Shown in pieces: positions 3,416-34,191 of a DNA stretch of 64,000 nucleotides. Below the pieces are notes generated by a model. It was not told where the DNA came from and searched no databases. It was given only the letters and a program-made list of their open reading frames with translations. The position numbers and the translations under genes are program-made. This stretch comes from Candidatus Uhrbacteria bacterium. Its GTDB lineage: Bacteria > Patescibacteriota > Patescibacteriia > UBA9934 > GWF2-40-263. The DNA is taken from positions 32,147-96,146 of the forward strand of contig JACRJU010000010.1 of the NCBI GenBank assembly GCA_016219925.1, read 5' to 3'. The stretch's first letter is position 1; each line of letters begins with the position of its first letter.

Positions 3416-4876
3416 ATGCAGGATTTTCGTGATACACTGCCGTTATCTATGCAAAAAGGCATTGTGGCGAGAAATTTCGCCGTGCAAGTATCTGGAAAAC
3501 TTCTCGCTGTTTTGGTTGGACTCATTTCAGTTGGTGTCCTGACACGCCACCTTGGAACAAATGGGTTTGGAGAATACACCACAGCGATCACGTTCCTTCA
3601 ATTGTTCGGGGTCGTGGTTGATTTTGGTCTGACCCTCACCATGGTCGTCATGATTTCAGAAGAGGGAGCGGATAATGAACGGATCATTGGAAACATTTTT
3701 GGTCTGCGCCTCTTGAGCGGGGCGCTGATTTTCAGTTTCGCTCCGCTTGCGGTGCTTTTGCTCCCGTGGTCCGCGCAGGTAAAGGACGCCGTACTGATCG
3801 GAAGCGTCGCGTATGTGCTTATGGGAGGAGCGACTCTGCTCGTCGGAGTCTTCCAGCGCTTTCAAGCGATGTGGCGGTCTGCACTGGCAGAAATGGTTAA
3901 CCGCATCGTACTGGTGATTGCCATCGTGATATTCGCGCAACTCAACTTAGGAGTGGTCTGGATGGTCGGAGCTTCGATGATTGCCAATGCGGTTTGGCTT
4001 TATGCCATGGTTCGACTGGCTCGCCCTTTCGTACGCATCCGTTTTTTGATGGATAGACATCTTTGGCAACAGGTGTGGTCTCGTTCTTGGCCGATTGCGG
4101 TCTCCATTTTTTTTAACCTGCTCTATCTCAAAGGGGACGTCCTCTTCCTTTCTTTGTATCGAAGCCAGACAGAAGTCGGTCTTTACGGAGTCACCTATCG
4201 CATCATCGACATGCTCACCGCCTTGCCGGTGATGTTCATGGGCATCCTTTTGCCTTTGGTTGTGAACACGTGGTCGGCTGGAAATCACGAAGAATTTCGC
4301 ACTCATGTGCGCCGTACATTTGATTTATTTATGATCGCCGCTATTCCGATTGTGATTGGAACACAGGTCGTGGCTGGACGGCTTATGCGACTGATCGCCG
4401 GGCCTGGATATGAAGCTTCTGGTGATATTTTGCGCTTGCTCATCTTCGCGGTCCTGGGTGTTTTTCTCGGCGCGCTATTCGGACATCTTGTGGTCGCCAT
4501 CAACAAACAAAAACCCATGGTGTGGGGATATGTGAGCGTCGCGGTGCTCACCGTAGCCGGCTACTTCCTTTTTATTCCCCCTTATGGCATGTGGGGTGCC
4601 GCTTGGATGACGCTTTTCTCTGAAGGTTTGATCGCAATCATCACGTTTGCGGTGGTCTATCACACGACCTCCGCCGTCCCACACTTGGGCGTGACACTCA
4701 AAGCCATTTTCGCTTCAGCCATCATGTATATCTTCCTGCAATTTCTCCCTACCCCATTTGTGCTTCTTGATCTTGCAGTGGCCGCCGCTCTTTACTTAAT
4801 CGTTATGCTTGTTATCAAAGGAATCAAGCTTGAAGAACTCCTCGCGCTAAGAGAAGCGCGCAATGCGATTGAATGA
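3416..4876 (+). CDS. Polysaccharide biosynthesis flippase (Wzx/MOP superfamily)
   Basis: 486 aa with about 12-14 hydrophobic helices. N-terminal '[21 protein letters not shown]' matches the Wzx pattern. Confidence 0.6.
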
Positions 4877-6062
4877 TATGACCGCGATACTCCTTTTGAT
4901 CACCCTCGTCTTTGTCGTTCTGGCTTACAAACGGCTTCCCCTCGCCGTCCTTTTGGTGATAGCCCTTCTGCCGAGCTATCTGCTTCGTCTCACCCTTTTT
5001 GGGATCCCAACAACTTTGCTTGAACTCATGCTCGGCGTTGTTGTTGTGGTTTGGCTCGGACAAAATCGTCATCGGCTGAAAACGATCCTCGCACTTGAAA
5101 GACGTTGGGCGATTGCGATTGCTTTGGTGATTCTAGCGGCGACGGTTGGAGCCGTCGTTGCTCCGGATACCATCGGCGCTCTTGGCGTTTGGAAAGCGTA
5201 CTTCATCGAACCCGTCGCATTGTTTTATGTTCTTGTTGATTTGTGCCGAAAAAAAGAATTAGACAGCAGCCGCATCATCAACGCGCTTTTGCTTGGTGGC
5301 GCGATCATCGCCGCGCTGACCCTCGTGCAGTGGGTGACGAATCTCGGCATTCCGATCCCATGGGATTTCGAACGCCGCGCGACCAGCCTCTTTGATTATC
5401 CCAATGCTGTTGGTTTGTTTTTAGGTCCGATCGCGATCATCACTTTGTACAAAAAATCCACGCGCGCGCTTTTCCTGCTCTTTCTGATTGCCATTGGGCT
5501 TGCACAGTCCGAAGCGGCTCTTGGAGCGATGGCAATCACGCTTGTCGTGATGGGACTTGCCTCTGCCCATATTCGAAAAACAACGCTCGTATTATGTCTC
5601 GTGGTCGCAACTCTCCTTTTGGTTATACCCACCACCCGCACCTATCTGATCACCAAGGTTACTTTGCAAGACCCTTCAGAACAGGTACGCGTCAGTCAAT
5701 GGCAAGAAACAATCGCCTTTCTCAAAGATCACCCGTTTTTTGGAGCAGGCCTCTCGGGATATCCTAAAGCCCTCGTCCCCTATCATACCCACCTTCAGTA
5801 CGAAATTTTTCAGTATCCGCACAATATCTTTTTGAACATCTGGGTAGAACTCGGTCTTTTGGGACTCATCGCTTTTGTTTTTTTAACGGCAACGCTTCTG
5901 CGTTCTCTTCTTTCTTCTTTCTTCTTCCTTCTTCCTTTGCTCGAAATCCTCCTCCATGGCCTCGTTGACGTTCCGTATTTCAAAAATGATTTAGCCGTGC
6001 TCGTGTGGATTCTGATCGCTCTTGTGTATGTCGAATACACCAACGCAAAACACGCCTCATAA
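4863..6062 (+). CDS. O-antigen ligase/polymerase family membrane protein (Wzy_C-like)
   Basis: Polytopic membrane protein with a loop '[13 protein letters not shown]' typical of O-antigen ligase-like proteins. Contains an in-frame CT-rich tract. Confidence 0.5.
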
Positions 6063-7216: not shown

Positions 7217-8089
7217 ATGACGATTCGAAAAGCCATCATCCCTGTTGCTGGCATGGGCACGCGTTTTTTGCCTGCTGCCAAAGCCCAGCCAAAAGAAATG
7301 CTCCCCGTGGTCGATAAACCGATCATCCAGTATATCGTTGAAGAAGCGGTGCAAAGCGGCATCGAAGAAATCATCTTCGTCACCGCCATCGGTAAACATG
7401 CTATTGAAAACCATTTTGATCGAAACTTCGAATTGGAATACCGCCTTGAACAAAAAGGGAAACTCAAGGAACTTAAAGCCATATCGGAGATCGGCAGACT
7501 CGCCAAATTCGCCTTCGTGCGCCAATCCAAACCCCTTGGTGACGGCCATGCCGTATTAAGCGCCCTCCCCTTTCTCGATTTGCACGAACCGGTCGCGGTC
7601 CTTTTTGGCGATGACATTATCGAAGGCAAAACTCCGGCGCTCAAACAATTGATTGATGTCTATAATAAGTACGGAGATTCAGTCCTCGCGTTACAAAAAG
7701 TGCCAAAAAACATGGTGAACCAATTCGGGGTGGTGGATGGGAAAAAATTATCCAAAACAACGTGGGAGATCAGGGGCTTCGTAGAAAAACCCGACATCAA
7801 GGAAGCTCCAAGCGATTTAATCGCAATCGGACGCTATATCCTGACTCCAAACATTTACACGCTTCTGGAAAAACAAAAACCCGGCAAGGATGGTGAAATC
7901 CGTCTGGCTAACGCGTTTGAGACGCTCCTCAAAAATAACGGAGTCTTGTATGGATGCCACTTTGAAGGAACCTGGCATAACTGCGGCGATAAATTCGGAT
8001 TCGTCAAAGCGCAAATTGAACTGGGCCTTAAACATCCCGATGTTGGTCCGGCTCTCAAAAAATATTTCAAAACCATGAAACCCCTATGA
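7217..8089 (+). CDS. galU: UTP--glucose-1-phosphate uridylyltransferase
   Basis: N-terminal 'KAIIPVAGMGTRFLPAAKAQPKEMLPVVDKPIIQY' is the canonical GalU signature. Confidence 0.9.
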   Translation: MTIRKAIIPVAGMGTRFLPAAKAQPKEMLPVVDKPIIQYIVEEAVQSGIEEIIFVTAIGKHAIENHFDRNFELEYRLEQKGKLKELKAISEIGRLAKFAFVRQSKPLGDGHAVLSALPFLDLHEPVAVLFGDDIIEGKTPALKQLIDVYNKYGDSVLALQKVPKNMVNQFGVVDGKKLSKTTWEIRGFVEKPDIKEAPSDLIAIGRYILTPNIYTLLEKQKPGKDGEIRLANAFETLLKNNGVLYGCHFEGTWHNCGDKFGFVKAQIELGLKHPDVGPALKKYFKTMKPL

Positions 8090-9462
8090 GGAGGACCTCT
8101 TTCAAAAAACTTTCCCTGCTGTTCGCTCTCATCCTGCTTGTCGGTGCAGGATGCACAGGCCCATCGGCCGCGGAAATTTCAGCTACCAAACCCGCCACCA
8201 TTTCCATTTGGCAGGTGTTTGACTCGGAAGAATCGCTCTTGCCAATCATGAACGCTTATCGCGCCATCCATCCCAATATTTCCTTTGAATATCGCCAGCT
8301 TCGTTCAGACGAATACAAAAATGAACTCCTGCGCGCATTTGCGGAAGGAAAAGGCCCAGATGTTTTTGCTATTCATAACACCTGGGTGGGCGAATATGAA
8401 AGTTTGATCGCTCCGTTGCCCGCGTCGCTCCAAATCGGCTATTCCGAAACGCGCGGCACCATCAAAAAAGAAACCATCTACACCTTAAAAGAAGAGCCGA
8501 CGATTTCCCTGCGAGCGCTCAAAAATGATTTCGTGGATGTGGTGTCCAAAGATGTGGTGCGTGCCTACCGCGTCAACCAGAATACCGAACCTCAAGATCG
8601 GATCTTCGGCCTTCCCCTTTCCGTTGACACAATGGCTCTTTACTACAATAAGGATCTGCTCAACGCCGCCAATATCCCTGAACCGCCAACCACATGGACG
8701 CAGTTTCAAGAACAGGTTGGCAAACTCACCAAAATTGGCCAAAACGATACGATCTTACAATCCGGCGCGGCCGTGGGCACGGGAAAAAACATCGAGCGCG
8801 CAATAGATATCTTAAATCTTCTCATGCTCCAAAATGGCGTCGAGATGGTTAGCGACCGTGGATCTGCTATCTTTGCCACAGGATCAGACAAAGAAAATCT
8901 AGCTGCAGATGCTGTGCGCTTCTATACTGATTTCGCCAACCCTCTTAAACAGGTGTACACCTGGAACGACTCTCAACCCAATTCATTTGACGCCTTCGTC
9001 AACGGCAAGGCCGCATTCTTTCTTGGCTATGCTTACCACGCGCCTCTGATTGCCGCACGGTCGCCAAAACTCAACTTCGCCATCGCTCCTGTTCCCCAAA
9101 TCGAAGGAGGAAAAACCGTGAACTACGCAAATTACTGGGTGGAAACCGTTTCACGCCAAACGAAAAATCTTGATACCGCTTGGGATTTCGTTGAGTTCGC
9201 CGCCTCAAAAGATCAGGTTACAAAATATCTCGATCTTGCCAAACGGCCGCCTGCTCGGCGAGCGCTTGTGAGTAGCCAACTTGAAGATGAAACCCTCTCG
9301 ATCTTTGCCTCCCAAGTGCTCACCGCGCAAAGCTGGTATCATGGAAGAGACGCGGGGGCTATGGAACAAGCCTTCATTGACCTCATCGGAGCGACCCTTT
9401 CAGGTTCTGATACACAAGAAATTTTGACGATCACTCAAAATAAAGTGAACCAAACGCTTTAA
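8086..9462 (+). CDS. ABC transporter substrate-binding lipoprotein (sugar-binding family 1-like)
   Basis: Lipobox 'LLVGAGCTG', a size of about 458 aa and an SBP-like sequence. No permease or ATPase is adjacent. Confidence 0.65.
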   Translation: MRRTSFKKLSLLFALILLVGAGCTGPSAAEISATKPATISIWQVFDSEESLLPIMNAYRAIHPNISFEYRQLRSDEYKNELLRAFAEGKGPDVFAIHNTWVGEYESLIAPLPASLQIGYSETRGTIKKETIYTLKEEPTISLRALKNDFVDVVSKDVVRAYRVNQNTEPQDRIFGLPLSVDTMALYYNKDLLNAANIPEPPTTWTQFQEQVGKLTKIGQNDTILQSGAAVGTGKNIERAIDILNLLMLQNGVEMVSDRGSAIFATGSDKENLAADAVRFYTDFANPLKQVYTWNDSQPNSFDAFVNGKAAFFLGYAYHAPLIAARSPKLNFAIAPVPQIEGGKTVNYANYWVETVSRQTKNLDTAWDFVEFAASKDQVTKYLDLAKRPPARRALVSSQLEDETLSIFASQVLTAQSWYHGRDAGAMEQAFIDLIGATLSGSDTQEILTITQNKVNQTL

Positions 9463-9467: not shown

Positions 9468-10094
9468 ATGCGACGAGCTTTTGCCTTTCTGCTCATCACC
9501 CTTTCCGTTGCGGCTTTGCCGTTTGCTGGATTGGCGTACTCGAGCAACATTTGCAAAGGCCCGACCTGTGATGTCTCCGAGGTGGGACGATTTATGGAAG
9601 GGATTACGCGCGAATGTGGAAACCTGGGCAACTGCTCGATCAATGATATTTTGATGGTGTTTGCCAATGCAGGAAACTTCGCCGTCGGCATTGTGGGAGC
9701 GCTTGTGCTTCTCATGTATGTGATCGGGGGAATGTACATGCTTTCTTCAGCAGGATCTTCGGACCGAGTCGCAAAAGGAAAAAAATATCTCACCATCTCA
9801 ACAACGGGGCTCCTCATTGTCGTCTTTGCTTATATTGGCATTAAGACGCTCGAATCGGTTTTGAGAACAGCCGGAGGCGAGGGTGACTTCGTCGAGGCTT
9901 GCACCGAGTCAACGATCGGCCAGCCTTGCGGACCGTCCAAACAATGTTTTCAAGCTGATGGTGCGTCAAGTGTTTCCTGTATCTCAAACTGTGAAGCTTT
10001 TACTCCAGGGGCGAGTTGCAAAAATGCTTCAAATCCTGCATGTATTTCAGGATTATGCCCTGGAGAAGCCGTGTGTTGTCCTCCAACGCCTTAA
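9468..10094 (+). CDS. TrbC/VirB2-like pilin family paralog 1 with Cys-rich C-terminal extension
   Basis: Signal peptide, conserved two-helix core 'LLMYVIGGMYMLSSAGSSDRVAKGKKYLTISTTGLLIVVFAYIGI', then about 70 aa with at least 12 Cys. Confidence 0.55.
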   Translation: MRRAFAFLLITLSVAALPFAGLAYSSNICKGPTCDVSEVGRFMEGITRECGNLGNCSINDILMVFANAGNFAVGIVGALVLLMYVIGGMYMLSSAGSSDRVAKGKKYLTISTTGLLIVVFAYIGIKTLESVLRTAGGEGDFVEACTESTIGQPCGPSKQCFQADGASSVSCISNCEAFTPGASCKNASNPACISGLCPGEAVCCPPTP

Positions 10095-10104
10095 TCCCAT
10101 TGCT

Positions 10105-10470
10105 ATGAAACTTTTTTTAAAACGATTAACTCTCCTTCTGTGGATTTGGTCCATGCCCCTTATGGCATTCGCCGCCGACCCGGCAGAAAAAAAATTGTTT
10201 AATCCTCTTGGAACTACGAGCATTCAAGCGGTGATCGCCCGGCTCATCAAAGCTTTGCTTGGACTTAGCGGAAGCATCGCCCTTCTGATGTTTGTGTGGG
10301 GAGGATTCTTGTGGCTTAGCTCTCGAGGGGAAACCAAACAAATCGAAAAAGGGAAAGAAACCATCAAATGGGCCACTTTCGGGCTCGTTATTATTTTTAC
10401 TGCCTACATTTTGGTTGGAGCAATCATTGGTGCGCTGATAAAAGGAACAGCTGTAGAGGCCCCAAGCTAG
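10105..10470 (+). CDS. TrbC/VirB2-like pilin family paralog 2
   Basis: Signal peptide then 'WGGFLWLSSRGETKQIEKGKETIKWATFGLVIIFTAYILVGAI'. Start set at the internal ATG that gives a signal peptide. Confidence 0.55.
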   Translation: MKLFLKRLTLLLWIWSMPLMAFAADPAEKKLFNPLGTTSIQAVIARLIKALLGLSGSIALLMFVWGGFLWLSSRGETKQIEKGKETIKWATFGLVIIFTAYILVGAIIGALIKGTAVEAPS

Positions 10471-10564
10471 CCGTGTGGATAAGCAGAGTTCTTTCTTCCC
10501 AAAAAAACGAGTAAAATACCTATAACCTTTCAATCATTTAACTTTTAAGGAGGCAACAATTTCT

Positions 10565-11023
10565 ATGACCATGGTACAGAAAAAATATCTCGGTTATGCG
10601 CTGGGAGCCGCCGTAGCCCTGCTCATTGCCGCGCCGATCGTGCTGGGAGGCGCACACAACGCTCTCGCTGCCCCCGGGCCACTTACAAAGGATGAGCTTT
10701 TCGGTGGCAAGGGTAAAACAGGCGATACATTTGCGGCAAATGCCGGACTTGGAAATGCGAACCTGATCGATACGATTTCTTCGATCATTCGCGTAGCTCT
10801 TGGTTTCCTCGGTGTGATTGCAGTGGTGATCATCCTGCTTGGTGGATTCAAGTGGATGACCTCGGGCGGAAACGATACCAAAGTTGGTGAGGCTAAAAAG
10901 CTCATCTTCGCAGGCATCATTGGATTGGTGATTGTGTTATCCGCATACGCGATCGCGAATTTCGTTATCGGCCAAATCGCGGGCGTCACCTCTAATCCTG
11001 TCCCTCCTGTCGGTGCTGGCTAA
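10565..11023 (+). CDS. TrbC/VirB2-like pilin family paralog 3
   Basis: 'LGGFKWMTSGGNDTKVGEAKKLIFAGIIGLVIVLSAYAIANFVI'. Confidence 0.55.
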   Translation: MTMVQKKYLGYALGAAVALLIAAPIVLGGAHNALAAPGPLTKDELFGGKGKTGDTFAANAGLGNANLIDTISSIIRVALGFLGVIAVVIILLGGFKWMTSGGNDTKVGEAKKLIFAGIIGLVIVLSAYAIANFVIGQIAGVTSNPVPPVGAG

Positions 11024-11105
11024 TGACTCATGCCCCCATCCCCCATCTTTTGGATGGGGGTTTGCGTAAGCTGATGAGAGGATTCGTCTGCTTACGCAAA
11101 TATTT

Positions 11106-11504
11106 ATGCAACGTTTTTTCTTGCGCATCGGCGCTCCAGCGATCATCTTTCTTTTGAGCGCCCCGTCTGCTTTGGCAGAGTCCGAAGCGGCAAAAGCGCT
11201 AAAGGGCGGACTCACAGATACCGCCAAGTTGGCTGGCTACCAATCAACATCTTTGCCTGTCATCATTGGAAATGTCATCAAGGCTTTGTTGGGTGTGGTC
11301 GGTATTATTTTCCTTTTGATTACCATCTATGCCGGTATTATGTATATGACGGCCGCGGGAGATACCGGAAAAGTCGACAAAGCAAAAAAAATGCTCACGC
11401 AATCGCTTATTGGCCTGGTGATCATCATAGGCGCCTATGCCTTTGCCAATTTCGTTGTGACTCAACTGGCTGTAGCAACAACGGCGGCACCAGTAAAAAA
11501 ATAG
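11106..11504 (+). CDS. TrbC/VirB2-like pilin family paralog 4
   Basis: 'YAGIMYMTAAGDTGKVDKAKKMLTQSLIGLVIIIGAYAFANFVV'. Confidence 0.55.
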   Translation: MQRFFLRIGAPAIIFLLSAPSALAESEAAKALKGGLTDTAKLAGYQSTSLPVIIGNVIKALLGVVGIIFLLITIYAGIMYMTAAGDTGKVDKAKKMLTQSLIGLVIIIGAYAFANFVVTQLAVATTAAPVKK

Positions 11505-11505
11505 T

Positions 11506-11901
11506 ATGAAAACCTTTTCAAGATGGCTGCTCATCGGAATATTTGTCTTGCTTCCAGTTTCTGCCTGGGCCGGCCTTCTTGATTCGCAACTAAGTACCGT
11601 AGGCAGTCAATTAGGAAAAGACGGTGGGGTCCCAACGAGTCTCCCCGTATTTATCGGTGGACTCATTAATGTCGTTTTATCGGTTCTTGGTCTCGTCTTT
11701 CTCGTTCTCATCGTGTATGCTGGATACATGTGGATGACGGCTTCAGGCGATTCAACCAAAGTTGATAAGGCCAAAAAACTTATTGGACAGGCTCTCATCG
11801 GCATGATCATTGTTATCGCTTCCTATGCGATCAGCGCGTTCGTGATCGACCGAATTTCAGGCGCAATTACGGTAGCGCCGGCGGCAGCCCCCACAAAATA
11901 A
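11506..11901 (+). CDS. TrbC/VirB2-like pilin family paralog 5
   Basis: 'YAGYMWMTASGDSTKVDKAKKLIGQALIGMIIVIASYAISAFVI'. Confidence 0.55.
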   Translation: MKTFSRWLLIGIFVLLPVSAWAGLLDSQLSTVGSQLGKDGGVPTSLPVFIGGLINVVLSVLGLVFLVLIVYAGYMWMTASGDSTKVDKAKKLIGQALIGMIIVIASYAISAFVIDRISGAITVAPAAAPTK

Positions 11902-11923
11902 CTTTCTTGAATCTTAATTATCT

Positions 11924-12316
11924 ATGAAAAATCTCTACTACACTTTCAGCGCCTGGATTTCCGTCTTGGGCCTGTCGCTTTTGCCGGCAAGCGCCATGGC
12001 TCAACTTAAACCATCAACAGATGCGGCGAGTGATCTTGGTAAGATCGGCAAGAAACTCGGCAACGAGACTCCAAACGATCTTCCAAACCTCATTGGCGGA
12101 CTCATCAACATGTTCCTTTCGATTCTCGGCATCGTCTTTGTGGTGCTGGTGATCTATGCCGGATACCTTTGGATGACGGCATCTGGCGACGCTACTAAAG
12201 TTGATAAAGCCAAAAAACTGCTTGGCCAGGCCATCATTGGAATCATCATTATTGTGGCGGCCTACGCGATCAGCACGTTCGTTATTAATAGGATCGTCGG
12301 AGCGGTTAAACCGTAG
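11924..12316 (+). CDS. TrbC/VirB2-like pilin family paralog 6
   Basis: 'YAGYLWMTASGDATKVDKAKKLLGQAIIGIIIIVAAYAISTFVI'. Confidence 0.55.
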   Translation: MKNLYYTFSAWISVLGLSLLPASAMAQLKPSTDAASDLGKIGKKLGNETPNDLPNLIGGLINMFLSILGIVFVVLVIYAGYLWMTASGDATKVDKAKKLLGQAIIGIIIIVAAYAISTFVINRIVGAVKP

Positions 12317-12328
12317 ATTTAAAAAAGG

Positions 12329-12356
12329 CAGAGCCGCGAGGCTCTGTTTTTATTTT
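12329..12356 (+). terminator. Rho-independent terminator after the pilin paralog array
   Basis: Hairpin cagagcc-gcga-ggctctg followed by tttttatttt. Confidence 0.6.
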
Positions 12357-12414: not shown

Positions 12415-13344
12415 TCAGCGCTTCCACCCGTTAGTGGCGTGGGTGATGCGCCGATCAAGGCTCTCGACGCGGTCGAGTTCGACCCGGACCGCGTTGCCCC
12501 ACAGAGTCTGGGGCGGCAGGCCGGGGATCTCGACCAGACTGCCGGTCGGAGCCAGGTAGATGATCTCGATGCGGTCGCGTGGGCCGACCGCCGAGATATA
12601 GAGCTCGTCGTAGGCGGCCGGGGCGACCGCGCTGTACGGGGTGCGGTCCGGACGACCGTCCCCATCGAGATCGGCGTAGACCGTCTCGATCGAGCCATCC
12701 GCATTGCCGATCGGGATGGCAACCCCGTTGCGCTTCACGAGAACCCGCGAGAATTGGGGGTTTCGGTGGGTGTGCCAGCTGACCCCACTGGCAAGCCCGA
12801 AGACTTGCAAGTAGGGGCCAACCACCTCGAAGGTCGTGGCGGCGTATGCCCCTGGGGTCGGGATGACCCTGTAGGGCGCGCCACCGACCATCATCGTGGA
12901 CGGTGGTAGGCCTGCGGGCGGACGGTGGTAGGCCTGCGGCTCGGCTGGTTGAGCCTTGCCGTCCTTCGCCTTCCGATCGCGGAGCGTCCGAAGACGCGCC
13001 TTGATCTGCTGCCTGGCTGTGCCAGCGGCAGGCAGCTCCGGCTGCTTGGCGTCCGGCACTGCCTGCTGGGACGCGAGCTTGGCTTTGGTCGCCTCGAGCT
13101 CCTGACGGAGCCGATCGACTTCGGCCTTGAGCCCGCTCTCGCCGGCTTTGAGCCGCGCCTCCAGGATCTTCACGTTCTGATCCTGGATGCACAGCAGTTG
13201 CTTGAGGCGGGCACTCGAGTCGGTTCCGGCGTAGCGGGCCTCGCAGAATGCGACGGCCTGCTTCGCTTCCTTCGACTCTTCAGCGTGCAGGGTGGCGGGG
13301 ACGAACAGGAACAGGGCGGCCGCGATGGCCATTTCGAACTTCAT
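12415..13344 (-). CDS. Secreted coiled-coil protein of unknown function (high-GC island 1)
   Basis: Signal peptide 'MKFEMAIAAALFLFVPATLHA', a coiled-coil stretch, then a C-terminal domain of unknown family. Strong GC-rich third-position bias. Antisense ORFs in the same region are Arg/Pro/Gly-rich junk. Confidence 0.5.
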   Translation of the reverse strand: MKFEMAIAAALFLFVPATLHAEESKEAKQAVAFCEARYAGTDSSARLKQLLCIQDQNVKILEARLKAGESGLKAEVDRLRQELEATKAKLASQQAVPDAKQPELPAAGTARQQIKARLRTLRDRKAKDGKAQPAEPQAYHRPPAGLPPSTMMVGGAPYRVIPTPGAYAATTFEVVGPYLQVFGLASGVSWHTHRNPQFSRVLVKRNGVAIPIGNADGSIETVYADLDGDGRPDRTPYSAVAPAAYDELYISAVGPRDRIEIIYLAPTGSLVEIPGLPPQTLWGNAVRVELDRVESLDRRITHATNGWKR

Positions 13345-13419
13345 GGATTTCTCCTTGTGGTCGGACGTGCCGACCGTCTTCGTCTTTCGAGACGGCCGGC
13401 ACGGACCACCCGAGCCGAC

Positions 13420-14055
13420 CTACTTGCGGTGAACTCGGAGGAGCTCGTTGAGGTCGCGGCGGTTGCACGCCGCTTCCTCTGCGGGGTTGGCGGGCGGGCG
13501 ACCACCAGGGCACTGGCTCGTGCTCGCGGGCGCGAGCGCTTGCGGAGGTGGCGGGCCGTAGTAACCCGGGGCGACCGCTTCACCGAGCGGCGGGAGGTAG
13601 CCTCTGGCTCCTGCCCGCCATCCAGCCTCGATCATGGTCGTCTCCTGGCTGGCTCCCGGATAGTAGACAGCCTGACCGTACGGCCCGTAGCCGCCGGCGG
13701 CGTAGGGGTAGGCCCCCATGCCGTACGGCCCGTAAGCGCCGTAGTAGCCCGTGTACCCGGAGGTCACCTGACCTCCGCGGGTGCTCACCTGCGTGGGCAC
13801 CCCCTTGTCAACCGACGCGCGGGCCGTTGCGGCCGCGCGCTCGGCCGCATCGCCGTCATGACGCGTACGCTCGAGCTGGTCGGCGGCGGCAAGGAGCGCT
13901 GCCGCTCCCCCGGTGGTGGCCAGATCCTGGTGGACCTGGACCGAACCGATGACCCGACCGCTTGCGTCGGTGAGGTCGCGCTTGAGCGCGACGCTCGCGC
14001 ATCCCGTGAGGGCGGCGAGCACGATGGCGAGGATGGTCTTCATCTGCTTCTCCAT
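13420..14055 (-). CDS. Lipoprotein with Gly/Tyr-rich repeat region (high-GC island 1)
   Basis: Lipobox 'LAALTGC'. Low-complexity 'YTGYYGAYGPYGMGAYPYAAGGYGPYG'. Same strand and same composition as the downstream gene. Confidence 0.5.
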   Translation of the reverse strand: MEKQMKTILAIVLAALTGCASVALKRDLTDASGRVIGSVQVHQDLATTGGAAALLAAADQLERTRHDGDAAERAAATARASVDKGVPTQVSTRGGQVTSGYTGYYGAYGPYGMGAYPYAAGGYGPYGQAVYYPGASQETTMIEAGWRAGARGYLPPLGEAVAPGYYGPPPPQALAPASTSQCPGGRPPANPAEEAACNRRDLNELLRVHRK

Positions 14056-14210
14056 GTCGACTCGCCTGCGGCTGCCGACTCAATTGCCCTGAAAAGGACG
14101 GTTTGTCCCAATTTGGGAACGTAGAAATATACCATAAAATTGCCTTTTTGTCAATAAATCCAACGAAAAAACGCCCTTTTAGGACGTTTCCTCAAACATT
14201 TAAAAACGGG

Positions 14211-15599: not shown

Positions 15600-17600
15600 C
15601 TACTTGCAGCCGAAGGCCTGACGACCTTCATAGCTAAGCGCCGCGCAGTCGACTCCGTTGGTGTGCGTGTGCGGCTTGGAAGCCGAACGCGCGCTGGACG
15701 AAGTCGGGGGCGTCGTGGCGAAGGGGTCCATCGTGTGGTGACCCACGAACCACGGAACGCTCACCGCGACCATGAGTGCGCAGAGGAAGACCGCGAGGTG
15801 GCCCACCAGGGGGTTACTCCCTTGAGTCACGTTCAGGATCGATCCTGACTGCACCCGTGTCTGTGCGAGCCGGCGCACGAGCCAGTACCCGGGCAGGTAC
15901 ACGAGCGTGAAGAGGACCGCGCTCGCAACCCACTGATGAGTCCCGAGGAAGCTGAGGCTTGCACCCCAGGCCGCGACAGTCGCGCCCCAGACGGCTTGCG
16001 GCCATCCGTGACGGATCATCCAGTCTGCGGCGATGATCCCGATCGTCACCAGCCACCCGTACTGCGCGCCCCGAAGAGCAAGCAGTTGGGCCTTGGCCGG
16101 CGCGCCCGCGACCTTGAAGCCCATCCCGATGCACACGCCGACGAAGGCGAGGCCCAGGATGACGACGCGTGCGCTGAGCGACACACCGACCTCCGGGATG
16201 AGGCCCAGAGCGATCAGGTACGCCGGCATCAGCATGAAGGTGAACCTCCAGCCGAATTCGGCGAGCCAATCGGCGGGCCACCCGAGCACACTGACAACCA
16301 GGGGGTGGAGCAGACGCTGCCAGATCCGCAGCGTAAAAAACATGATGATCAGCACCGTCGCGCAGATGATCGCGCGCAGGCTGTGGTACATGCTCGGGGC
16401 ACTGAAGAGGCTCGAGAGCATCCACCAGAACGCCGTGAGGAACATCACCACGGTCGCCAGGTTGAACACCACGATCCCGACCGCCGAGCCGTAGAGCAGG
16501 GCTTTGAGGGTCCCGCTCATGGCGCCGCGGTTGTGCCAGGCGCTCGAAGCGCCGCGCAGGGCCTTGTGCCAGAGCGTGAGCTCCGCACCCAAGGCCGTGT
16601 CGAACGCGGCGATGATGTCGTCGAGATCTTCGGGGTTGAACCGGTCCTCGGGGGTCGCACGCGGATTGTAGTACTCCGCGAGCGTCCTGAGAAACGGCAC
16701 GCCCTTCTTGTCGACGACGTCCTTGACGATGTCCTCGCGCAGGGCGTACTGCAGGGCCGTTCCCTGCCGCACGCTGCGGCTGATGAGCAGGAAGAAGCGC
16801 CGAACCTCGGGTCCGACCGCCTCCCACCACTCGGCGGGCTTCCTCAGAAGACCCTCGAGGATCTTGAGCTCTACGGCGCTGACGCGCTGGGTATCCCCCA
16901 TCTGCGCGATCGCTTCCGCGAGCTTCAGGACCTCGTGCGGGAAGGACTCGGCCGGCACACGCTCGGTGCGAGGCTGTTGGCCCTTGCCACCGCCGACCTG
17001 CTTGGTCGTGGCTTTGTGGGTGTCATCCCAGACGCTCTTGTAGAGCGCCCAGGTCGGATCCAGGATGACGGGCACCTGGTCGGCACCCACCCGAATCTTG
17101 CCGTCAGAGTCCCGGGCCGGAACGAAGATCTTACCCGGAACGAGCCGGCTGACAACAACCCAGTCAAGAGTCTGGTTGGCATCAGCGTCTGCGACGCCGG
17201 GGTCGGAGCGGGCCGCGTCGACCTCGCGATCGATCTGGCTCGCGGCATCCGCGTACCCGGTGAACACGCCCAACAGGGCGTGTGGGCCAACCTCCTTGAG
17301 GAGGAGCTTGGCCTCGCGAACGACCGGACGGGTGTCGCCCGGAAGAATCCGCTCGACGAAGTCGCTCTTCTTGAGCAAGGCCGCGACGGCCGAGCCCGCG
17401 AGTGGGAGGGTGAACCCGGGCATGGTGCGCGCCAGGGCCATGACCGGCCCGGCCGCTCCGAAGATGCCCTTGAGCGACCGCTTGGCGATCGCCTTGCCGG
17501 ACTCTCCAGCACCCGCACCCTCGGTGAGCTCGCGCTCGAGGTGCTGGTGCACGGCCTGTTCGGCGGCCTCTTCGGCCATCAATCGAAGAAACTCGTTCAT
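15600..17600 (-). CDS. Large polytopic membrane protein of unknown function (high-GC island 2)
   Basis: 666 aa. A soluble N-terminal domain of about 350 aa is followed by about 7-9 hydrophobic helices. GGAG RBS upstream. Very GC-rich. Confidence 0.5.
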   Translation of the reverse strand: MNEFLRLMAEEAAEQAVHQHLERELTEGAGAGESGKAIAKRSLKGIFGAAGPVMALARTMPGFTLPLAGSAVAALLKKSDFVERILPGDTRPVVREAKLLLKEVGPHALLGVFTGYADAASQIDREVDAARSDPGVADADANQTLDWVVVSRLVPGKIFVPARDSDGKIRVGADQVPVILDPTWALYKSVWDDTHKATTKQVGGGKGQQPRTERVPAESFPHEVLKLAEAIAQMGDTQRVSAVELKILEGLLRKPAEWWEAVGPEVRRFFLLISRSVRQGTALQYALREDIVKDVVDKKGVPFLRTLAEYYNPRATPEDRFNPEDLDDIIAAFDTALGAELTLWHKALRGASSAWHNRGAMSGTLKALLYGSAVGIVVFNLATVVMFLTAFWWMLSSLFSAPSMYHSLRAIICATVLIIMFFTLRIWQRLLHPLVVSVLGWPADWLAEFGWRFTFMLMPAYLIALGLIPEVGVSLSARVVILGLAFVGVCIGMGFKVAGAPAKAQLLALRGAQYGWLVTIGIIAADWMIRHGWPQAVWGATVAAWGASLSFLGTHQWVASAVLFTLVYLPGYWLVRRLAQTRVQSGSILNVTQGSNPLVGHLAVFLCALMVAVSVPWFVGHHTMDPFATTPPTSSSARSASKPHTHTNGVDCAALSYEGRQAFGCK

Positions 17601-17776
17601 CTCTATCTCCTGTGCGGCTCTTGGCCGCGCAATGGGTTTGGAACACGTGAAAAGGGCGAAAAAAACCTTTTCTCCAATGCGCGTTGCCGCACACAGAAGG
17701 GACTTTTATATCATATTTCGGCCGTTTTGTCAACGGCCAATGACTCATTTTTCTTAAATTCCTTCATAAGTCACCC

Positions 17777-17851
17777 AGTGGGTAATAAGAGATTTGTGAC
17801 CTTGTCTTCGGGCCGACGGACTCATCGCCGTCGTTCCCTCCGACATGGTCA
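17777..17851. repeat. 75-bp palindromic element with perfect 15-bp terminal inverted repeats
   Basis: aagagatttgtgacc (17777-17791) and ggtcacaaatctctt (17837-17851) are exact reverse complements. The spacer holds an internal cgacgg/ccgtcg stem. Confidence 0.6.
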
Positions 17852-17979
17852 CAAATCTCTTTAGGGCTGTGAAGAATAAACGAGTCACAGCCAGTGGGGA
17901 GGCGGCCATGGGGCCCCCACTGACCTTCTCTTTGTGGGCTTCAAGCGAACCCAAGCGGGTGGTCGAAAAGACAAAAGGG

Positions 17980-31153: not shown

Positions 31154-32290
31154 TTATGAACGAATAGGCATGAGCACATACCGGTACGCCTGTGTGCTCT
31201 GTGCGGGACTGATAAGACAGGGGTTGGCCCCATCAATCATTTCAAAGACCACCTGATCTGAAACGATCGCTTGCAGGCCATCGAGGAGATAGCGATAATT
31301 TACCGAAACTGTGTTTGGCTGTCCAGAAATTTCTGCGCCGCAAGAGCTGATGTTATCCCCACGGGTTGCGTCTGTCGCCTGAACATGGAGAGCCTCCGCG
31401 GTGGGTTCAAAAGCCAAAGTGACGTCAAATAAGCCATTTTTTGAGAATAAACTAGCGGTTTTTACAGCTTTTATAAAGTCTTCTTTATCCAAAATAGCCC
31501 GTGTTGAAAACTGTTTTGGGATAATCTGCTGGTAATCAGGATAATTTTCATCAATAACCCGTGAAATAAGTTCAACCGGACCAAAAATAAATACCGCCTG
31601 ACTTTGCGAAAGCTGTAAGCTGACAGTTGTTGGTAGTTCAACATCATCTTTGAAAACGGAAAGAACGCGTAGAACCTCCGAAAGCGTCTTGGCTGGGACA
31701 ACGACACTTCTTTCTTGTCCTGGACGATCCAGAAGCGTTATGGTGGCTTCTGAGAGCCTGTAGGAGTCGGTTGCAACCAGCTTCAAACGCCCCTCACTCT
31801 CAAATGAAGAAAAATGCATGAGCACACCCGTGAGTTCTGGACGTGATTCGTTTGTTGCTACCGCAAAGAGGACTTGAGATAAGGCGGCTTTTAAATCACC
31901 AACAGGAATCCGATAGATCTCCTCCCCATTCACTTTTGGCACAAGAGGGAATTCAGAAGCAGAAAGTCCGTTGATTTTTGTTTTGTGGTTTCCGCACTGC
32001 AAACGAATATTATCATCATCCGTATCAAGACGAATTGTTTCGCTTGGAAGGAGCGAAACGTAATCATAAAATAGTTTTGATGGGACGGTGTGCTCCCCCG
32101 GTTCATCAACTTTGCCTCTCACAACACAATTCACTGCAATTTCTAAATTTGTCGACGTAAATTTTATTGTTCCCCCCTCCGCTTTAACAAGAACATTTTG
32201 TAAAATCGGTAAATTAACGTTCTTCGTCATGAGATGGCTTGTGATGCTCAACCCTTGATGGAGATTCTCTTTCGTACAAGACAGTTTCAT
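31154..32290 (-). CDS. dnaN: DNA polymerase III beta sliding clamp
   Basis: 378 aa, lies downstream of dnaA, with a three-domain repeat pattern. Confidence 0.85.
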   Translation of the reverse strand: MKLSCTKENLHQGLSITSHLMTKNVNLPILQNVLVKAEGGTIKFTSTNLEIAVNCVVRGKVDEPGEHTVPSKLFYDYVSLLPSETIRLDTDDDNIRLQCGNHKTKINGLSASEFPLVPKVNGEEIYRIPVGDLKAALSQVLFAVATNESRPELTGVLMHFSSFESEGRLKLVATDSYRLSEATITLLDRPGQERSVVVPAKTLSEVLRVLSVFKDDVELPTTVSLQLSQSQAVFIFGPVELISRVIDENYPDYQQIIPKQFSTRAILDKEDFIKAVKTASLFSKNGLFDVTLAFEPTAEALHVQATDATRGDNISSCGAEISGQPNTVSVNYRYLLDGLQAIVSDQVVFEMIDGANPCLISPAQSTQAYRYVLMPIRS

Positions 32291-32354
32291 ATTTTTGTTC
32301 TGTATTATTGTTTTTACAAAAGAGATTAATAAATAAAGTAATAGTAGTAAGGGG

Positions 32355-32425
32355 TGTGGATGAAGTGGAAAACAGAAATTTTTAGCTTAATTGAGTGATG
32401 TTTTAGCTTATGGATTTGTGGATGA
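32355..32425. promoter_or_regulatory. Candidate oriC core: two TGTGGATGA DnaA-box-like 9-mers beside an AT-rich stretch in the dnaA-dnaN intergenic region
   Basis: tgtggatga at 32355-32363 and 32417-32425, each one mismatch from TGTGGATAA. 32291-32350 is about 80% AT. Confidence 0.45.
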
Positions 32426-32535
32426 ACTTAGGTGTTTGGTTGTGGAGTCTTGGTGAATATTTTTGAACACTTTATTTATTCACTCTTTCCCCCACCTCTT
32501 TCACAGAGGGTTACCCACGAGAAGTGCACTGTATA

Positions 32536-33927
32536 TTAATAGGTGTAGAGTTTTTGTTTGATCAGTTCAAGATCGTGTTGAAGTTTTTCATCCGCCACAA
32601 GACAATTACAGATTTTTTCATAGGCGTGCATAGCTGTTGTGTGGTCTCGTCCTCCAAGTTCTGTTCCAATAGATGGATAACTCGCTTTCATTTCCTCACG
32701 CATGAGATACATGATAATTTGTCTTGGAAACGCCAGCCGTTTTTGGCGGCTCGCTCCAAGCAGGTCAACGATTTGGACATCGAAATATCCAGCGACTGTC
32801 TGAATAAGCTGTTTGGGGGTAACGGTTTTTCTTGTGTTTGAAGGAGTGAAGCTTGAGAGGATTGGTTTTACAGAATCAAGAGTTGCGCGGGTGTTTTTGA
32901 ATTGATGAAACGCGATAATTTTGTTAAGGGCTCCTTCAAGTTCTCGAACGTTCGTTTGGACAACACTTGCGATGTGATGAACGATGTCGTGTTCGAGTGC
33001 GTAAGTTTTTTCTCGGCACTTGGTTTCTAAAATTGCTACACGTGTTTCAAAATCTGGAGAGCCCACGTCGGCCATCATTCCCTGCTCAAATCTTGAGATA
33101 AGCCGGCTTTCAAGTTGGGGGATGGCTTTTGGTGGACGATCTGAAGAGATCACGATCTGCTTGTTATTTTGGTAGAGCTGGTTGAATGTGTGAAAAAACT
33201 CTTCCTGCGTTCCCTCTTTTCCAGTCATAAACTGGATGTCGTCAACCAATAGAACATCAACCGTTCGGTAACGATTTTTAAACTCAACCATCCGCCCCCC
33301 CTTAAGCGCCCCAATGAAATCATTGGTAAAACGCTCGCTTGTGACATATAAAATGCGCGTTTGTGGGCTTTTTCGTATAAGTTCGTTGCCAACCGCTTGT
33401 AAAAGGTGGGTTTTTCCAAGGCCGACACCACCATAGATAAACAAGGGGTTGTAGACGCCTCCTGGCTGTGCACACACAGCTTGAGCGGCGGCGTGGGCCA
33501 GCTCATTTTGTTTGCCAACAATGAACGTTCCAAAACAGTACTTTCCATTAAGAGAAAATTCCCCTGTGCGAATTTCTTGAGGTTCGTGACTGGTTCTGGG
33601 TTGGTACCCGTCTGATGTTGGTGGTTCGTTCTGCGAAGACCCATCGAACAGCGGAATAATTTGTTGAGGAGCTTGTTGGCGCGCTTCCACGCGGTACGTC
33701 AACTGTTTGATTGTTCCGTTCGTGAGATCCTGCAAAGACTGCATGATTTCTTTTGAATACTTCTTTTCTAGCCAGGCTTTTGTAAAAAGATTCGGAACTC
33801 CAACGATAATGGCATGATCACGCACTTCTGAAATAAAAGTTTGTTTAAACCAGGTGGTGAAATTTGCTTTACTCAATGACAATTCGAGTTCGCCAAGAAC
33901 CGCTTGCCAGAGTTCGTTGGTGTTCAT
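32536..33927 (-). CDS. dnaA: Chromosomal replication initiator DnaA
   Basis: 'GGVGLGKTHLLQAVG', 'VDVLLVDDIQF', C-terminal 'RDHTTAMHAYEKI'. Start at internal ATG 'MNTNELWQ'. Confidence 0.9.
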   Translation of the reverse strand: MNTNELWQAVLGELELSLSKANFTTWFKQTFISEVRDHAIIVGVPNLFTKAWLEKKYSKEIMQSLQDLTNGTIKQLTYRVEARQQAPQQIIPLFDGSSQNEPPTSDGYQPRTSHEPQEIRTGEFSLNGKYCFGTFIVGKQNELAHAAAQAVCAQPGGVYNPLFIYGGVGLGKTHLLQAVGNELIRKSPQTRILYVTSERFTNDFIGALKGGRMVEFKNRYRTVDVLLVDDIQFMTGKEGTQEEFFHTFNQLYQNNKQIVISSDRPPKAIPQLESRLISRFEQGMMADVGSPDFETRVAILETKCREKTYALEHDIVHHIASVVQTNVRELEGALNKIIAFHQFKNTRATLDSVKPILSSFTPSNTRKTVTPKQLIQTVAGYFDVQIVDLLGASRQKRLAFPRQIIMYLMREEMKASYPSIGTELGGRDHTTAMHAYEKICNCLVADEKLQHDLELIKQKLYTY

Positions 33928-33990
33928 ACGGGGCGTAGTGTAGACTACTTGTCCACATGTGAGCAAGTGCGTGTTTCGTGTACAAAGGGG

Positions 33991-34190: not shown

Positions 34191-34191
34191 C

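What the first reader, a model, noticed from the sequence alone, without database searches (positions are those of the whole stretch)
9468..12356. Six tandem, diverging paralogs of a TrbC/VirB2-like pilin under one terminator
All six plus-strand ORFs (121-208 aa) share a signal peptide and two hydrophobic helices joined by a conserved loop (consensus roughly 'YAGY-WMTA-GD--KVDKAKK-L-Q--IG-IIV-A-YAI--FVI'). The region between signal peptide and core is different in every copy. One terminator follows the last gene (12329-12356). This fold and topology is that of conjugative or type IV secretion pilins, a family reported as expanded in CPR/Patescibacteria. No VirB4/VirD4 ATPase or other type IV secretion gene lies within the window. 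A six-gene expression array with diversified N-terminal regions suggests subunit switching or a heteropolymeric surface fibre.
Basis: partly seen in the sequence, partly recalled or inferred. Interest (0 to 1): 0.6.

Follow-up and report, generated by a model that had tools for sequence, protein, structure and literature searches.

The report
Six-gene VirB2-like pilin array, Uhrbacteria
Six neighbouring genes in a Candidatus Uhrbacteria chromosome encode small VirB2/TrbC-like "pilin" membrane proteins; such arrays are already described in this group of ultra-small bacteria, so this is an ordinary new example, though its gene order turns out to be old and conserved.

Summary
Six co-oriented genes (9468-12316) each encode a signal peptide and two hydrophobic helices joined by a basic loop. 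All six match Pfam PF18895 (T4SS_pilin): four pass the curated cut-off and two fall just below it. The window comes from a Candidatus Uhrbacteria MAG (GTDB class ABY1).

Such arrays are already published: 441 VirB2 arrays of 2-11 genes in 383 Patescibacteria assemblies, and an essential six-pilin array in Southlakia epibionticum. So this is a new member of a known kind.

What I add:
- The array is syntenic in six other genomes (galU, solute-binding lipoprotein, then 5-6 pilins).
- The paralogs group by position, not by genome, so they are ancient and retained. This argues against subunit switching.
- Position 3 looks like the major subunit. It is the most conserved, alone has a strong ribosome-binding site, and is followed by a conserved, covarying double RNA hairpin.
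- Position 1 is a cysteine-rich long form.
- No type IV secretion gene was detected in the 64 kb window, nor any Pfam hit to one within about 10 kb of the array in the relatives. Whether this genome has VirB4 could not be tested.

Fold searches could not discriminate. A separate oddity is five scattered genes with GC3 of 0.82-0.94.

The parts
7217..8089 (+). galU (UTP-glucose-1-phosphate uridylyltransferase). It is the first gene of the conserved co-oriented block and overlaps the next gene by 4 nt.
   Evidence: TIGR01099 scores 333.7 bits against a cut-off of 326.8. Pfam NTP_transferase. It sits in the same position in all six other genomes.
8086..9462 (+). Solute-binding-protein-family lipoprotein (lipobox LVGAGC). 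It ends 5 nt before pilin gene 1, and no ABC permease gene lies beside it.
   Evidence: Pfam SBP_bac_1 and SBP_bac_8. It lies directly upstream of the pilin array in all seven genomes.
9468..10094 (+). Pilin 1: the long form (208 aa). It has four conserved Cys before the core and a Cys-rich C-terminal extension of about 70 aa.
   Evidence: PF18895 scores 25.4 bits, just under the 26.6 cut-off. Orthologues of 174-247 aa hold the first position in L002, L006, L008 and L009 with the same Cys pattern.
10105..10470 (+). Pilin 2: the short TrbC-like form (121 aa), with an NPLGTT motif after the leader.
   Evidence: PF18895 scores 50.9 bits and TrbC PF04956 scores 30.5 bits against a cut-off of 27.9. 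It falls in the position-2 clade.
10471..10564 (+). Unstructured spacer before pilin 3. It carries conserved blocks (GTGTGGATA, A-run, TAAAAT, TTTAACTTTTAAG) and the only strong Shine-Dalgarno sequence (AAGGAGG). It is a possible internal promoter and a strong translation start.
   Evidence: Alignment of five genomes. The SD scan marks position 3 in W, L002, L006, L008 and L009; the pattern also flags some other genes, but AAGGAGG-class sites occur only at position 3. It folds less well than shuffled sequence, z = +2.0. The promoter role is inferred.
10565..11023 (+). Pilin 3: the candidate major subunit (152 aa, 35-aa leader).
   Evidence: PF18895 scores 34.5 bits. It is the most conserved position: 59-78% identity across genomes over 117 core columns, and 79-89% over the 72-residue core in the five closer genomes. 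Proteins of about 150 aa dominate the database hits, and the consensus of the 76-sequence alignment matches pilin 3.
11032..11099 (+). Two adjacent stable hairpins in the spacer between pilins 3 and 4. This is a conserved structured element, possibly an attenuator or an mRNA 3'-end stabiliser. It is not a canonical terminator, because it has no long U-run.
   Evidence: dG -40.4 kcal/mol, z = -6.3. In five genomes 95% of cells pair, 13 of 24 pairs change on both sides, 0 of 500 shuffles reach this, and slid controls pair at 37-52%. No Rfam family matches.
11106..11504 (+). Pilin 4 (132 aa).
   Evidence: PF18895 scores 38.5 bits. NF045849 scores 41.9 bits against a cut-off of 40. It falls in the position-4 clade with L002, L006, L008 and L009.
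11506..11901 (+). Pilin 5 (131 aa), starting 1 nt after the stop of pilin 4.
   Evidence: PF18895 scores 24.4 bits, just under the cut-off. NF045849 gives E = 1.8e-8. It is 61.5% identical to pilin 6. The 5/6 duplication is shared only with L002.
11924..12316 (+). Pilin 6 (130 aa).
   Evidence: PF18895 scores 35.7 bits. NF045849 scores 42.1 bits against a cut-off of 40. The AlphaFold2 model shows a leader helix plus a long helical hairpin (residues 53-84 and 90-128) with core pLDDT above 90.
12329..12356 (.). Terminator that reads in both directions, shared with the convergent gene at 12415-13344.
   Evidence: Stem CAGAGCC/GGCTCTG is flanked by an A-run and a T-run. dG -19 kcal/mol, z = -5.1. 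A hairpin plus T-run follows the last pilin gene in all seven genomes.

Best explanation
This is a chromosomal array of six VirB2/TrbC-like pilin genes (Pfam T4SS_pilin family) in a Candidatus Uhrbacteria genome. It is one more instance of the VirB2 arrays already described in Patescibacteria.

Proposed mechanism; every step below is inferred, none was shown:
1. Each protein enters the membrane through Sec and loses its leader at an A-x-A site.
2. It then sits in the membrane as a helical hairpin. Both ends face outward and the Lys-rich loop faces the cytoplasm.
3. A VirB4-powered type IV secretion machine, encoded elsewhere in the genome, extracts the subunits and polymerises them. The product is a surface filament or conduit through the monoderm envelope, used to contact a host cell.

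The six genes are not interchangeable variants. They form an old, vertically inherited set of specialised subunits in a fixed order:
- Position 1 is a Cys-rich long form whose two ends would decorate the outside of the filament, so it is a candidate adhesin or tip subunit.
- Position 2 is a TrbC-like short form.
- Position 3 is the major subunit.
- Positions 4 to 6 are minor subunits, and this end of the array still gains and loses copies.

Relative dosage is probably set within the operon. Gene 3 has a strong ribosome-binding site and perhaps a promoter in front of it, and a conserved double hairpin behind it.
For: Family:
- All six hit PF18895 and gene 2 passes the TrbC cut-off.
- Genes 4 and 6 pass NF045849, 'pilin-like conjugal transfer protein' of Mycoplasma ICEs.

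Topology:
- Leaders ending in A-x-A-type sites (A-x-A in genes 2-6), two hydrophobic helices and a basic loop.
- A confident helical hairpin in the AlphaFold2 model.

Host and precedent:
- The source is a Candidatus Uhrbacteria MAG.
- 441 arrays of 2-11 VirB2 genes are reported in 383 Patescibacteria assemblies (PMC12102498).
- Southlakia has a six-pilin array that is essential for its survival in co-culture (PMC12857230).

Specialisation of the copies:
- The same gene order is found in six other genomes.
- A neighbour-joining tree of 39 pilins groups them by position, not by genome.
- Orthologues have pN of 0.19-0.30 against pS of 0.72-0.82.
- The paralog-specific N-terminal segments are conserved between orthologues at positions 1-3.
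- There are no long identical tracts and no inverted repeats flanking the array.

Dosage design:
- In the five closer genomes position 3 carries an AAGGAGG-class Shine-Dalgarno sequence, and its upstream spacer is unstructured in the window.
- The double hairpin after gene 3 covaries.

VirB4 exists in the lineage. It was reported in 23 of the 41 Uhrbacteria assemblies I could read in Table S1 of PMC12102498, including two that carry close homologues of these pilins.
Against: - No VirB4, VirB6, VirB3, VirD4 or relaxase domain was detected in the 64 kb window, and no such Pfam hit is on record within about 10 kb of the array in six relatives.
- One array-bearing Uhrbacteria assembly, GW2011_GWF2_39_13 (1.16 Mb), is listed without VirB4.
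- I could not search the rest of this MAG.
- No solved pilin is detectable by sequence, and fold searches are non-discriminating.
- No filament has been seen in any Uhrbacterium.
- The major/minor assignment rests on conservation and expression signals, not on expression data.
- Genes 1 and 5 fall slightly below the Pfam cut-off.
Confidence: 0.55

Rival explanations
1. The copies are interchangeable major pilins kept for variation. Different copies would be used to match different host strains or to evade recognition, as proposed for virB2 paralog arrays in Bartonella and Anaplasma and suggested for Patescibacteria.
For: - The mature N-terminal segment is poorly conserved at positions 4-6 (21-54% identity).
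- The 3' end of the array changes in copy number. The 5/6 duplication is found only in this genome and L002, and L004 and L010 have their own position 4-6 clades.
- PMC12102498 proposes this reading.
Against: - Positions 1-4 are orthologous across genomes and under purifying selection.
- The genes share one orientation with gaps of 1-22 nt within the pilin 1-2 and pilin 4-6 sub-blocks, and the consensus scan found no plus-strand promoter for individual genes.
- There is no sign of gene conversion or of an invertible element.
Confidence: 0.2
2. The proteins form no extended pilus. They would be membrane-embedded parts of a monoderm-type type IV secretion channel, or a short wall-spanning conduit, like the pilin-like proteins of Mycoplasma ICE conjugation systems.
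For: - Genes 2-6 hit NF045849 (Mbov_0395 family) and two of them pass its cut-off. Gene 4 gives a weak hit to a pLS20 conjugation membrane protein.
- The Patescibacteria VirB4 clade is related to the monoderm MPF-FATA class, whose systems are not known to make pili (PMC12102498).
Against: - Six differentiated copies, one of them with large Cys-rich extracellular extensions, are hard to explain for a buried channel part.
- Reviews of the Southlakia system favour a pilus-like structure, but without direct data.
Confidence: 0.17
3. The array works without any type IV secretion system. It would be a lineage-specific set of small membrane or surface proteins that only share the helical-hairpin architecture, and would be linked in function to the envelope glycan genes upstream.
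For: - The array is uncoupled from type IV secretion genes in seven genomes.
- VirB4 is reported absent from 18 of the 41 Uhrbacteria assemblies I could read.
- The array sits at the end of a Wzx, Wzy_C, galU, solute-binding-protein envelope block.
Against: - Three independent curated pilin or conjugation models match these proteins.
- Draft MAGs often miss genes.
- Two pilin-bearing Uhrbacteria assemblies are listed with VirB4.
Confidence: 0.08

Closest known systems
VirB2-like pilin arrays of Patescibacteria: the Ca. Southlakia epibionticum ML1 six-pilin array (Wang et al. 2023, cited in PMC12857230) and the 441 arrays surveyed in PMC12102498
   Same: Tandem, sequence-divergent VirB2-like pilin genes in a Patescibacterium. 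The copy number is the same as in Southlakia (six). The Pfam family used for detection is the same (PF18895). Within-array identity is low.
   Different: In Southlakia the array lies inside the type IV secretion locus with VirB4 and VirB6-like genes and is essential there. Here no such gene was detected in 64 kb or beside six syntenic relatives, and essentiality is untested. The published survey found arrays mainly in Microgenomatia and Saccharimonadia, whereas this one is in class ABY1. The top within-array identity here (61.5%, local alignment) exceeds the 54% maximum reported. Positional orthology and the spacer hairpins are not mentioned in the passages I read.
Conjugative pilins of diderm systems: Agrobacterium VirB2, RP4 TrbC and F TraA (Pfam PF04956 TrbC/VirB2)
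   Same: A cleaved leader, two hydrophobic helices and a basic connecting loop. Gene 2 passes the PF04956 cut-off, and genes 3, 4 and 6 give sub-threshold hits.
   Different: Those are usually single genes inside the transfer operon of a diderm system. Here there are six chromosomal copies in a monoderm-type cell. No similarity to solved pilins is detectable by sequence. Cyclisation or acetylation of the pilin is unknown here.
Mycoplasma ICE pilin-like conjugal transfer protein (NCBIfam NF045849, Mbov_0395 / MMCAP2_0565 family)
   Same: Genes 4 and 6 pass the model's cut-off and genes 2, 3 and 5 give E-values of 1e-6 to 1e-8. Both hosts are monoderm or wall-less. This fits the reported MPF-FATA ancestry of the Patescibacteria VirB4.
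   Different: That model describes a protein of a mobile element. Here the genes form a chromosomal multi-copy array with no ICE genes nearby.
virB2 paralog arrays of Bartonella, Anaplasma and Rickettsia type IV secretion systems
   Same: Several tandem virB2 paralogs in an organism that depends on a host.
   Different: Those arrays are interpreted as antigenic or host-range variation in diderm intracellular bacteria. Here the copies are ancient positional orthologues under purifying selection.
Major and minor pilin operons of type IV pili and chaperone-usher pili (an analogy only)
   Same: One abundant subunit gene is followed by a stem-loop and then by less-expressed specialised subunits.
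   Different: The folds and assembly machines are unrelated. I use this only as a model for dosage control.

Membership tests
Pfam PF18895 T4SS_pilin | HMM score at or above the curated gathering cut-off (26.6 bits) | tested here: met
   Genes 2, 3, 4 and 6 score 50.9, 34.5, 38.5 and 35.7 bits. Genes 1 and 5 score 25.4 and 24.4 bits, just below. Both of those sit inside the family by alignment, in orthologue clades. The Pfam hits on record for their orthologues are mostly marked weak and are absent for two position-1 proteins.
Pfam PF04956 TrbC/VirB2 pilin | HMM score at or above the cut-off (27.9 bits) | tested here: inconclusive
   Only gene 2 passes (30.5 bits). Genes 3, 4 and 6 score 18.6, 23.5 and 17.2 bits. 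Genes 1 and 5 give no hit.
NCBIfam NF045849 Mbov_0395-family pilin-like conjugal transfer protein | HMM score at or above the cut-off (40 bits) | tested here: inconclusive
   Gene 4 (41.9 bits) and gene 6 (42.1 bits) pass. Genes 2, 3 and 5 score 28.5-34.1 bits. Gene 1 gives no hit.
VirB2-type conjugative pilin (functional class) | Cleavable leader, two membrane helices and a short basic loop, with both termini outside | tested here: met
   A-x-A sites, hydropathy segments and a Lys-rich loop. The AlphaFold2 hairpin has core pLDDT above 90. The orientation is inferred from the positive-inside rule.
VirB2-type conjugative pilin (functional class) | Three-dimensional similarity to solved pilins (F, T, pKM101 or pED208 pili) | tested here: inconclusive
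VirB2-type conjugative pilin (functional class) | Encoded with, or in the same genome as, a VirB4 ATPase and other type IV secretion core genes | tested here: not met
   Linkage fails. No T4SS-family Pfam domain was found among ORFs of at least 120 aa across the 64 kb or on record within about 10 kb of the array in six relatives. Presence elsewhere in this MAG could not be tested. In Table S1 of PMC12102498, 23 of the 41 Uhrbacteria assemblies I could read have VirB4.
VirB2-type conjugative pilin (functional class) | Polymerises into an extracellular filament | not testable with these tools
   This needs microscopy or biochemistry. No such data exist for Uhrbacteria in the papers I read.
Patescibacteria VirB2 array (as defined in PMC12102498) | Two or more VirB2-like pilin genes in tandem, or separated by one non-pilin gene, in a Patescibacteria genome | tested here: met
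   Six consecutive pilin genes. The host is Candidatus Uhrbacteria, placed in class ABY1 in the paper's Table S1.

The most novel reading that the evidence does not exclude
In Uhrbacteria the VirB2-like pilins may have become a self-contained, fixed-order module of five specialised subunit types: a Cys-knot form, a TrbC-like form, a major form and minor forms. The module is genetically uncoupled from VirB4. About half of the Uhrbacteria assemblies I could check show no VirB4, so there the module may be assembled by some other machine or act as a membrane assembly of its own. Subunit ratios would be set by a conserved structured RNA element after the major gene. The subunits might also be O-glycosylated on their Ser/Thr/Pro-rich C-terminal tails by the Wzx, Wzy_C and GalU genes upstream.
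Probability: 0.12. Interest if true: 0.6.

Novelty: new member of a known kind. Interest (0 to 1): 0.3.

Why it matters
How Patescibacteria attach to and feed from host cells is an open question. The only genetic study so far found a type IV secretion locus and its six-pilin array essential for the survival of one Saccharibacterium in co-culture with its host. This window shows that a comparable six-gene array exists in a distant class (ABY1, Uhrbacteria). There it has a conserved gene order, position-specific subunit types and built-in dosage signals, and it lies away from any detected secretion ATPase gene.

That makes a fixed multi-subunit structure the more likely purpose of such arrays, rather than a store of variants. 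It also names candidates to test: pilin 3 as the major subunit and the Cys-rich pilin 1 as an adhesin. It does not reveal a new kind of system.

Tried and rejected
- **Solved pilins by sequence.** A profile of 76 family members against PDB sequences gave only a chance hit (E = 0.52).
- **Plasmid relatives.** tblastn of pilin 2 against 72,556 plasmids found no match.
Synonymous sites are saturated (pS 0.71-0.83) both between paralogs and between the closest orthologues. Only the qualitative result pN << pS can be used.
- **Switch mechanisms.** I found no long identical tracts. The only inverted repeats are the two spacer hairpins and one weak 33-nt pair (73% complementary) lying inside genes 1 and 4. 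The only recombinase found is a XerC-like gene about 40 kb away.
- **Rfam match for the spacer hairpins.** None.
- **Assembly chimera or recent foreign island for the GC-rich stretch after the array.** Rejected. An independent Logan contig has the same join. Homologous genes at the same place in other genomes are also GC3-rich.
- **The conserved 666-aa membrane protein downstream as a hidden VirB6-like part.** It has no Pfam or NCBIfam hit and only nine family members. The AlphaFold2 model is too poor to search with (pLDDT 63, pTM 0.29). I left it open.
- **VirB4 in this MAG.** The NCBI contig is not retrievable beyond the window, and I had no Uhrbacteria VirB4 sequence to use as a query. I could only use the per-assembly table of PMC12102498.


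Full report
**What is there**

The region holds six co-oriented ORFs:
- 9468-10094 (208 aa)
- 10105-10470 (121 aa)
- 10565-11023 (152 aa)
- 11106-11504 (132 aa)
- 11506-11901 (131 aa)
- 11924-12316 (130 aa)

The 195-aa GTG ORF from 9883 overlaps gene 1. It is replaced by the ATG at 10105, which gives a normal leader (MKLFLKRLTLLLWIWSMPLMAFA/ADP) matching the orthologues.

All six proteins align over a core of two hydrophobic helices joined by a Lys-rich loop. Each is preceded by a leader that ends in an A-x-A-type site.

**Family**

All six match Pfam PF18895 T4SS_pilin. Four pass the curated cut-off. Genes 1 and 5 miss it by 1-2 bits. Gene 2 also passes the TrbC/VirB2 model PF04956.

NCBIfam adds a link not mentioned in the passages of PMC12102498 that I read. 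Genes 2-6 match NF045849, the Mbov_0395-family 'pilin-like conjugal transfer protein' of Mycoplasma ICEs, and genes 4 and 6 are above its cut-off.

The family is very large. A profile of 76 members finds 78,975 cluster representatives at E <= 1e-3.

**Source and setting**

The proteins are identical to HZA85_01625 through HZA85_01650 of a Candidatus Uhrbacteria MAG, on a 145.5 kb contig. An independent Logan assembly has the same arrangement.

I ran Pfam on the ORFs of at least 120 aa that I judged to be real genes, across the whole window. It is ordinary chromosome:
- envelope genes (SpoIID, Wzx, Wzy_C, galU, PBP1)
- Fe-S assembly genes
- a Liv-type ABC transporter
- dnaN and dnaA (31154-33966), with the GC-skew minimum near 30 kb
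- trigger factor, H+-pyrophosphatase, PNPase and PolA

No VirB4, VirB6, VirB3, VirD4 or relaxase domain appears anywhere. The array lies about 20 kb from dnaA.

**Prior knowledge**

PMC12102498 searched 3,035 Patescibacteria genomes with PF18895 and PF04956. It reports 441 VirB2 arrays of 2-11 genes in 383 assemblies. Mean identity within arrays is 25% and the maximum is 54%.

PMC12857230 summarises the Southlakia epibionticum locus. It carries six divergent VirB2-like pilins that are essential for survival in co-culture.

The kind of feature is therefore known.

**What the comparison adds**

I fetched the neighbourhoods of homologues from six other genomes (L002, L004, L006, L008, L009, L010). 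All show the same order: galU, then a solute-binding-protein-family lipoprotein, then five or six pilin genes, then convergent genes of unknown function.

A tree of the 39 pilins groups them by position in the array, not by genome:
- Position 1 is always the long Cys-rich form.
- Position 2 is always the short TrbC-like form with NPLGTT.
- Position 3 is a form of about 150 aa and is the most conserved. Identity to the window copy is 59-78% over 117 core columns, and 79-89% over the 72-residue core in the five closer genomes.
- Position 4 forms its own clade in the five closer genomes.
- The last position is duplicated only in this genome and L002.

Between this genome and L002, pN is 0.19-0.30 against a saturated pS of 0.72-0.82.

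The segment between leader and core differs among paralogs. Between orthologues it is 54-67% identical at positions 1 and 3, 40-53% at position 2, and 21-54% at positions 4-6.

At the DNA level the array has only old similarity (75% over 194 nt between genes 5 and 6). No inverted repeats flank it.

These results argue for an ancient, retained set of specialised subunits. The 3' end of the array shows some turnover. They argue against a variation cassette.

**Expression layout**

- galU overlaps the binding-protein gene by 4 nt. That gene ends 5 nt before pilin 1, and pilin 2 follows pilin 1 after 10 nt. Transcription may therefore start upstream of the array.
- Before pilin 3 lies a 94-nt spacer. 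It folds less well than shuffled sequence (z = +2.0) and carries the array's only strong Shine-Dalgarno sequence. It also has sequence blocks conserved in four of five genomes.
- After pilin 3 lies an 82-nt spacer that forms two adjacent hairpins (dG -40.4 kcal/mol, z = -6.3).
- Across five genomes this structure keeps 95% of pairs. Thirteen of 24 pairs change on both sides. None of 500 shuffles matches this, and slid controls pair at only 37-52%.
- The structure matches no Rfam family and lacks the U-run of a canonical terminator.
- A canonical hairpin plus T-run follows the last pilin gene in all seven genomes.

I read this as a design that raises pilin 3 relative to the others. That reading is inferred and has not been shown.

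**Mechanism**

From established knowledge of VirB2-type pilins (my own knowledge, not tested here), I expect the following:
- The leader is cleaved.
- The hairpin sits in the membrane with the basic loop in the cytoplasm.
- The subunits are extracted and polymerised by a VirB4-driven machine.

In such a filament the N- and C-termini face outward. That would place the Cys-rich ends of pilin 1 and the Ser/Thr/Pro-rich tails of pilins 3 and 4 on the surface. A DsbA-like thioredoxin lipoprotein is encoded at 50540-51313.

Whether a type IV secretion machine exists in this genome is unknown. Table S1 of PMC12102498 lists VirB4 in 23 of the 41 Uhrbacteria assemblies I could read. Two of these carry close homologues of these pilins. 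However, GW2011_GWF2_39_13 is listed without VirB4, and it does carry a five-gene array. These are draft MAGs, so absence is weak evidence.

**Rival readings**

- Variation cassette.
- Membrane-embedded channel part without a long pilus. The Mycoplasma ICE hit and the monoderm ancestry of the Patescibacteria VirB4 support this.
- A role independent of type IV secretion.

None is excluded. I rank them below the specialised-subunit reading.

**Side observation**

Five scattered genes have GC3 of 0.82-0.94 in a genome where other genes have 0.35-0.60. Three of them lie just downstream of the array: 12415-13344, 13420-14055 and 15600-17600. The other two are 54246-55226 and 57572-58732.
- The boundaries are gene-sharp. 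The purD-like gene that sits between two of the outliers is normal.
- Orthologues of the three array-adjacent genes in four other genomes also have raised GC3, although the proteins are only 25-49% identical.
- The families are tiny: nine members for the 666-aa protein, and one homologue for the 57572-58732 gene.

This is neither an assembly chimera nor a recent island. I have no tested explanation for it.

**Verdict**

The pilin-family interpretation is supported and the 'switching' idea is weakened. The feature is a new member of a known kind and is of modest interest.

Noticed in passing
window 12415-13344(-), 13420-14055(-), 15600-17600(-), 54246-55226(+), 57572-58732(+): Five isolated genes have GC3 of 0.82-0.94 (overall GC 0.65-0.71) in a genome where other genes have GC3 of 0.35-0.60. 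The boundaries are gene-sharp. Orthologues of the three array-adjacent genes in L002, L006, L008 and L009 also have GC3 well above their neighbours, despite only 25-49% protein identity. The two families I searched (the 666-aa protein and the 57572-58732 gene) are tiny or orphan. The three array-adjacent proteins carry a signal peptide, lipobox or membrane helices. This is not a chimera or a recent island, and the cause is unknown.
   Followed up: partly
window 11032-11099 (and L002 5658-5725, L006 about 10465-10530, L008 about 7930-7995, L009 about 10450-10515): A conserved double hairpin lies in the spacer after the third pilin gene. It has strong covariation (13 of 24 pairs change on both sides in five genomes) and no Rfam match. 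It could be described as a new small cis-regulatory RNA motif of Uhrbacteria pilin operons.
   Followed up: yes
window 8086-9462(+): A solute-binding-protein-family lipoprotein has no ABC permease or ATPase gene beside it. It is tightly coupled to galU upstream and pilin 1 downstream, and it holds that position in all seven genomes examined. It may have a role in the pilin system rather than in transport.
   Followed up: partly
window 3416-6062(+) and the C-termini of pilins 3 and 4 (also L006, L008, L009): Wzx-like flippase and Wzy_C (O-antigen-ligase family) genes lie a few kb upstream. Orthologues of pilins 3 and 4 end in Ser/Thr-rich tails (for example SDSSSSSSSE and GSTTTTTSSK). Known pilin O-glycosyltransferases also carry a Wzy_C domain, so pilin glycosylation is conceivable. 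I did not test this.
   Followed up: no
database proteins P0130 (552 aa), P0133 (1775 aa), P0131, P0145 and others: Some relatives are single polypeptides with many pilin domains: six in P0130, whose sequence shows no internal leaders, and up to 17 matched stretches in P0133. These are either fused 'poly-pilins' or arrays merged by gene calling.
   Followed up: partly
window 31154-35000: dnaN and dnaA sit next to an AT-rich stretch (GC 0.43 at 32-34 kb), and the cumulative GC-skew minimum is near 30 kb. This marks the replication origin. The pilin array is about 20 kb away and is transcribed against the direction of replication.
   Followed up: partly
L002 10350-10844(+) and 11583-12296(+): Two called genes have GC1 of 0.82-0.85. 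They look like antisense miscalls over a GC3-rich minus-strand gene, probably the homologue of the window's 666-aa protein, possibly disrupted. The window likewise has long spurious antisense ORFs over its GC3-rich genes (12925-14124+, 15936-17864+, 57689-58804-).
   Followed up: no
window 44596-45891(-): This is the opposite kind of compositional outlier: a 431-aa ORF with GC 0.40, GC3 0.35 and no Pfam hit.
   Followed up: no
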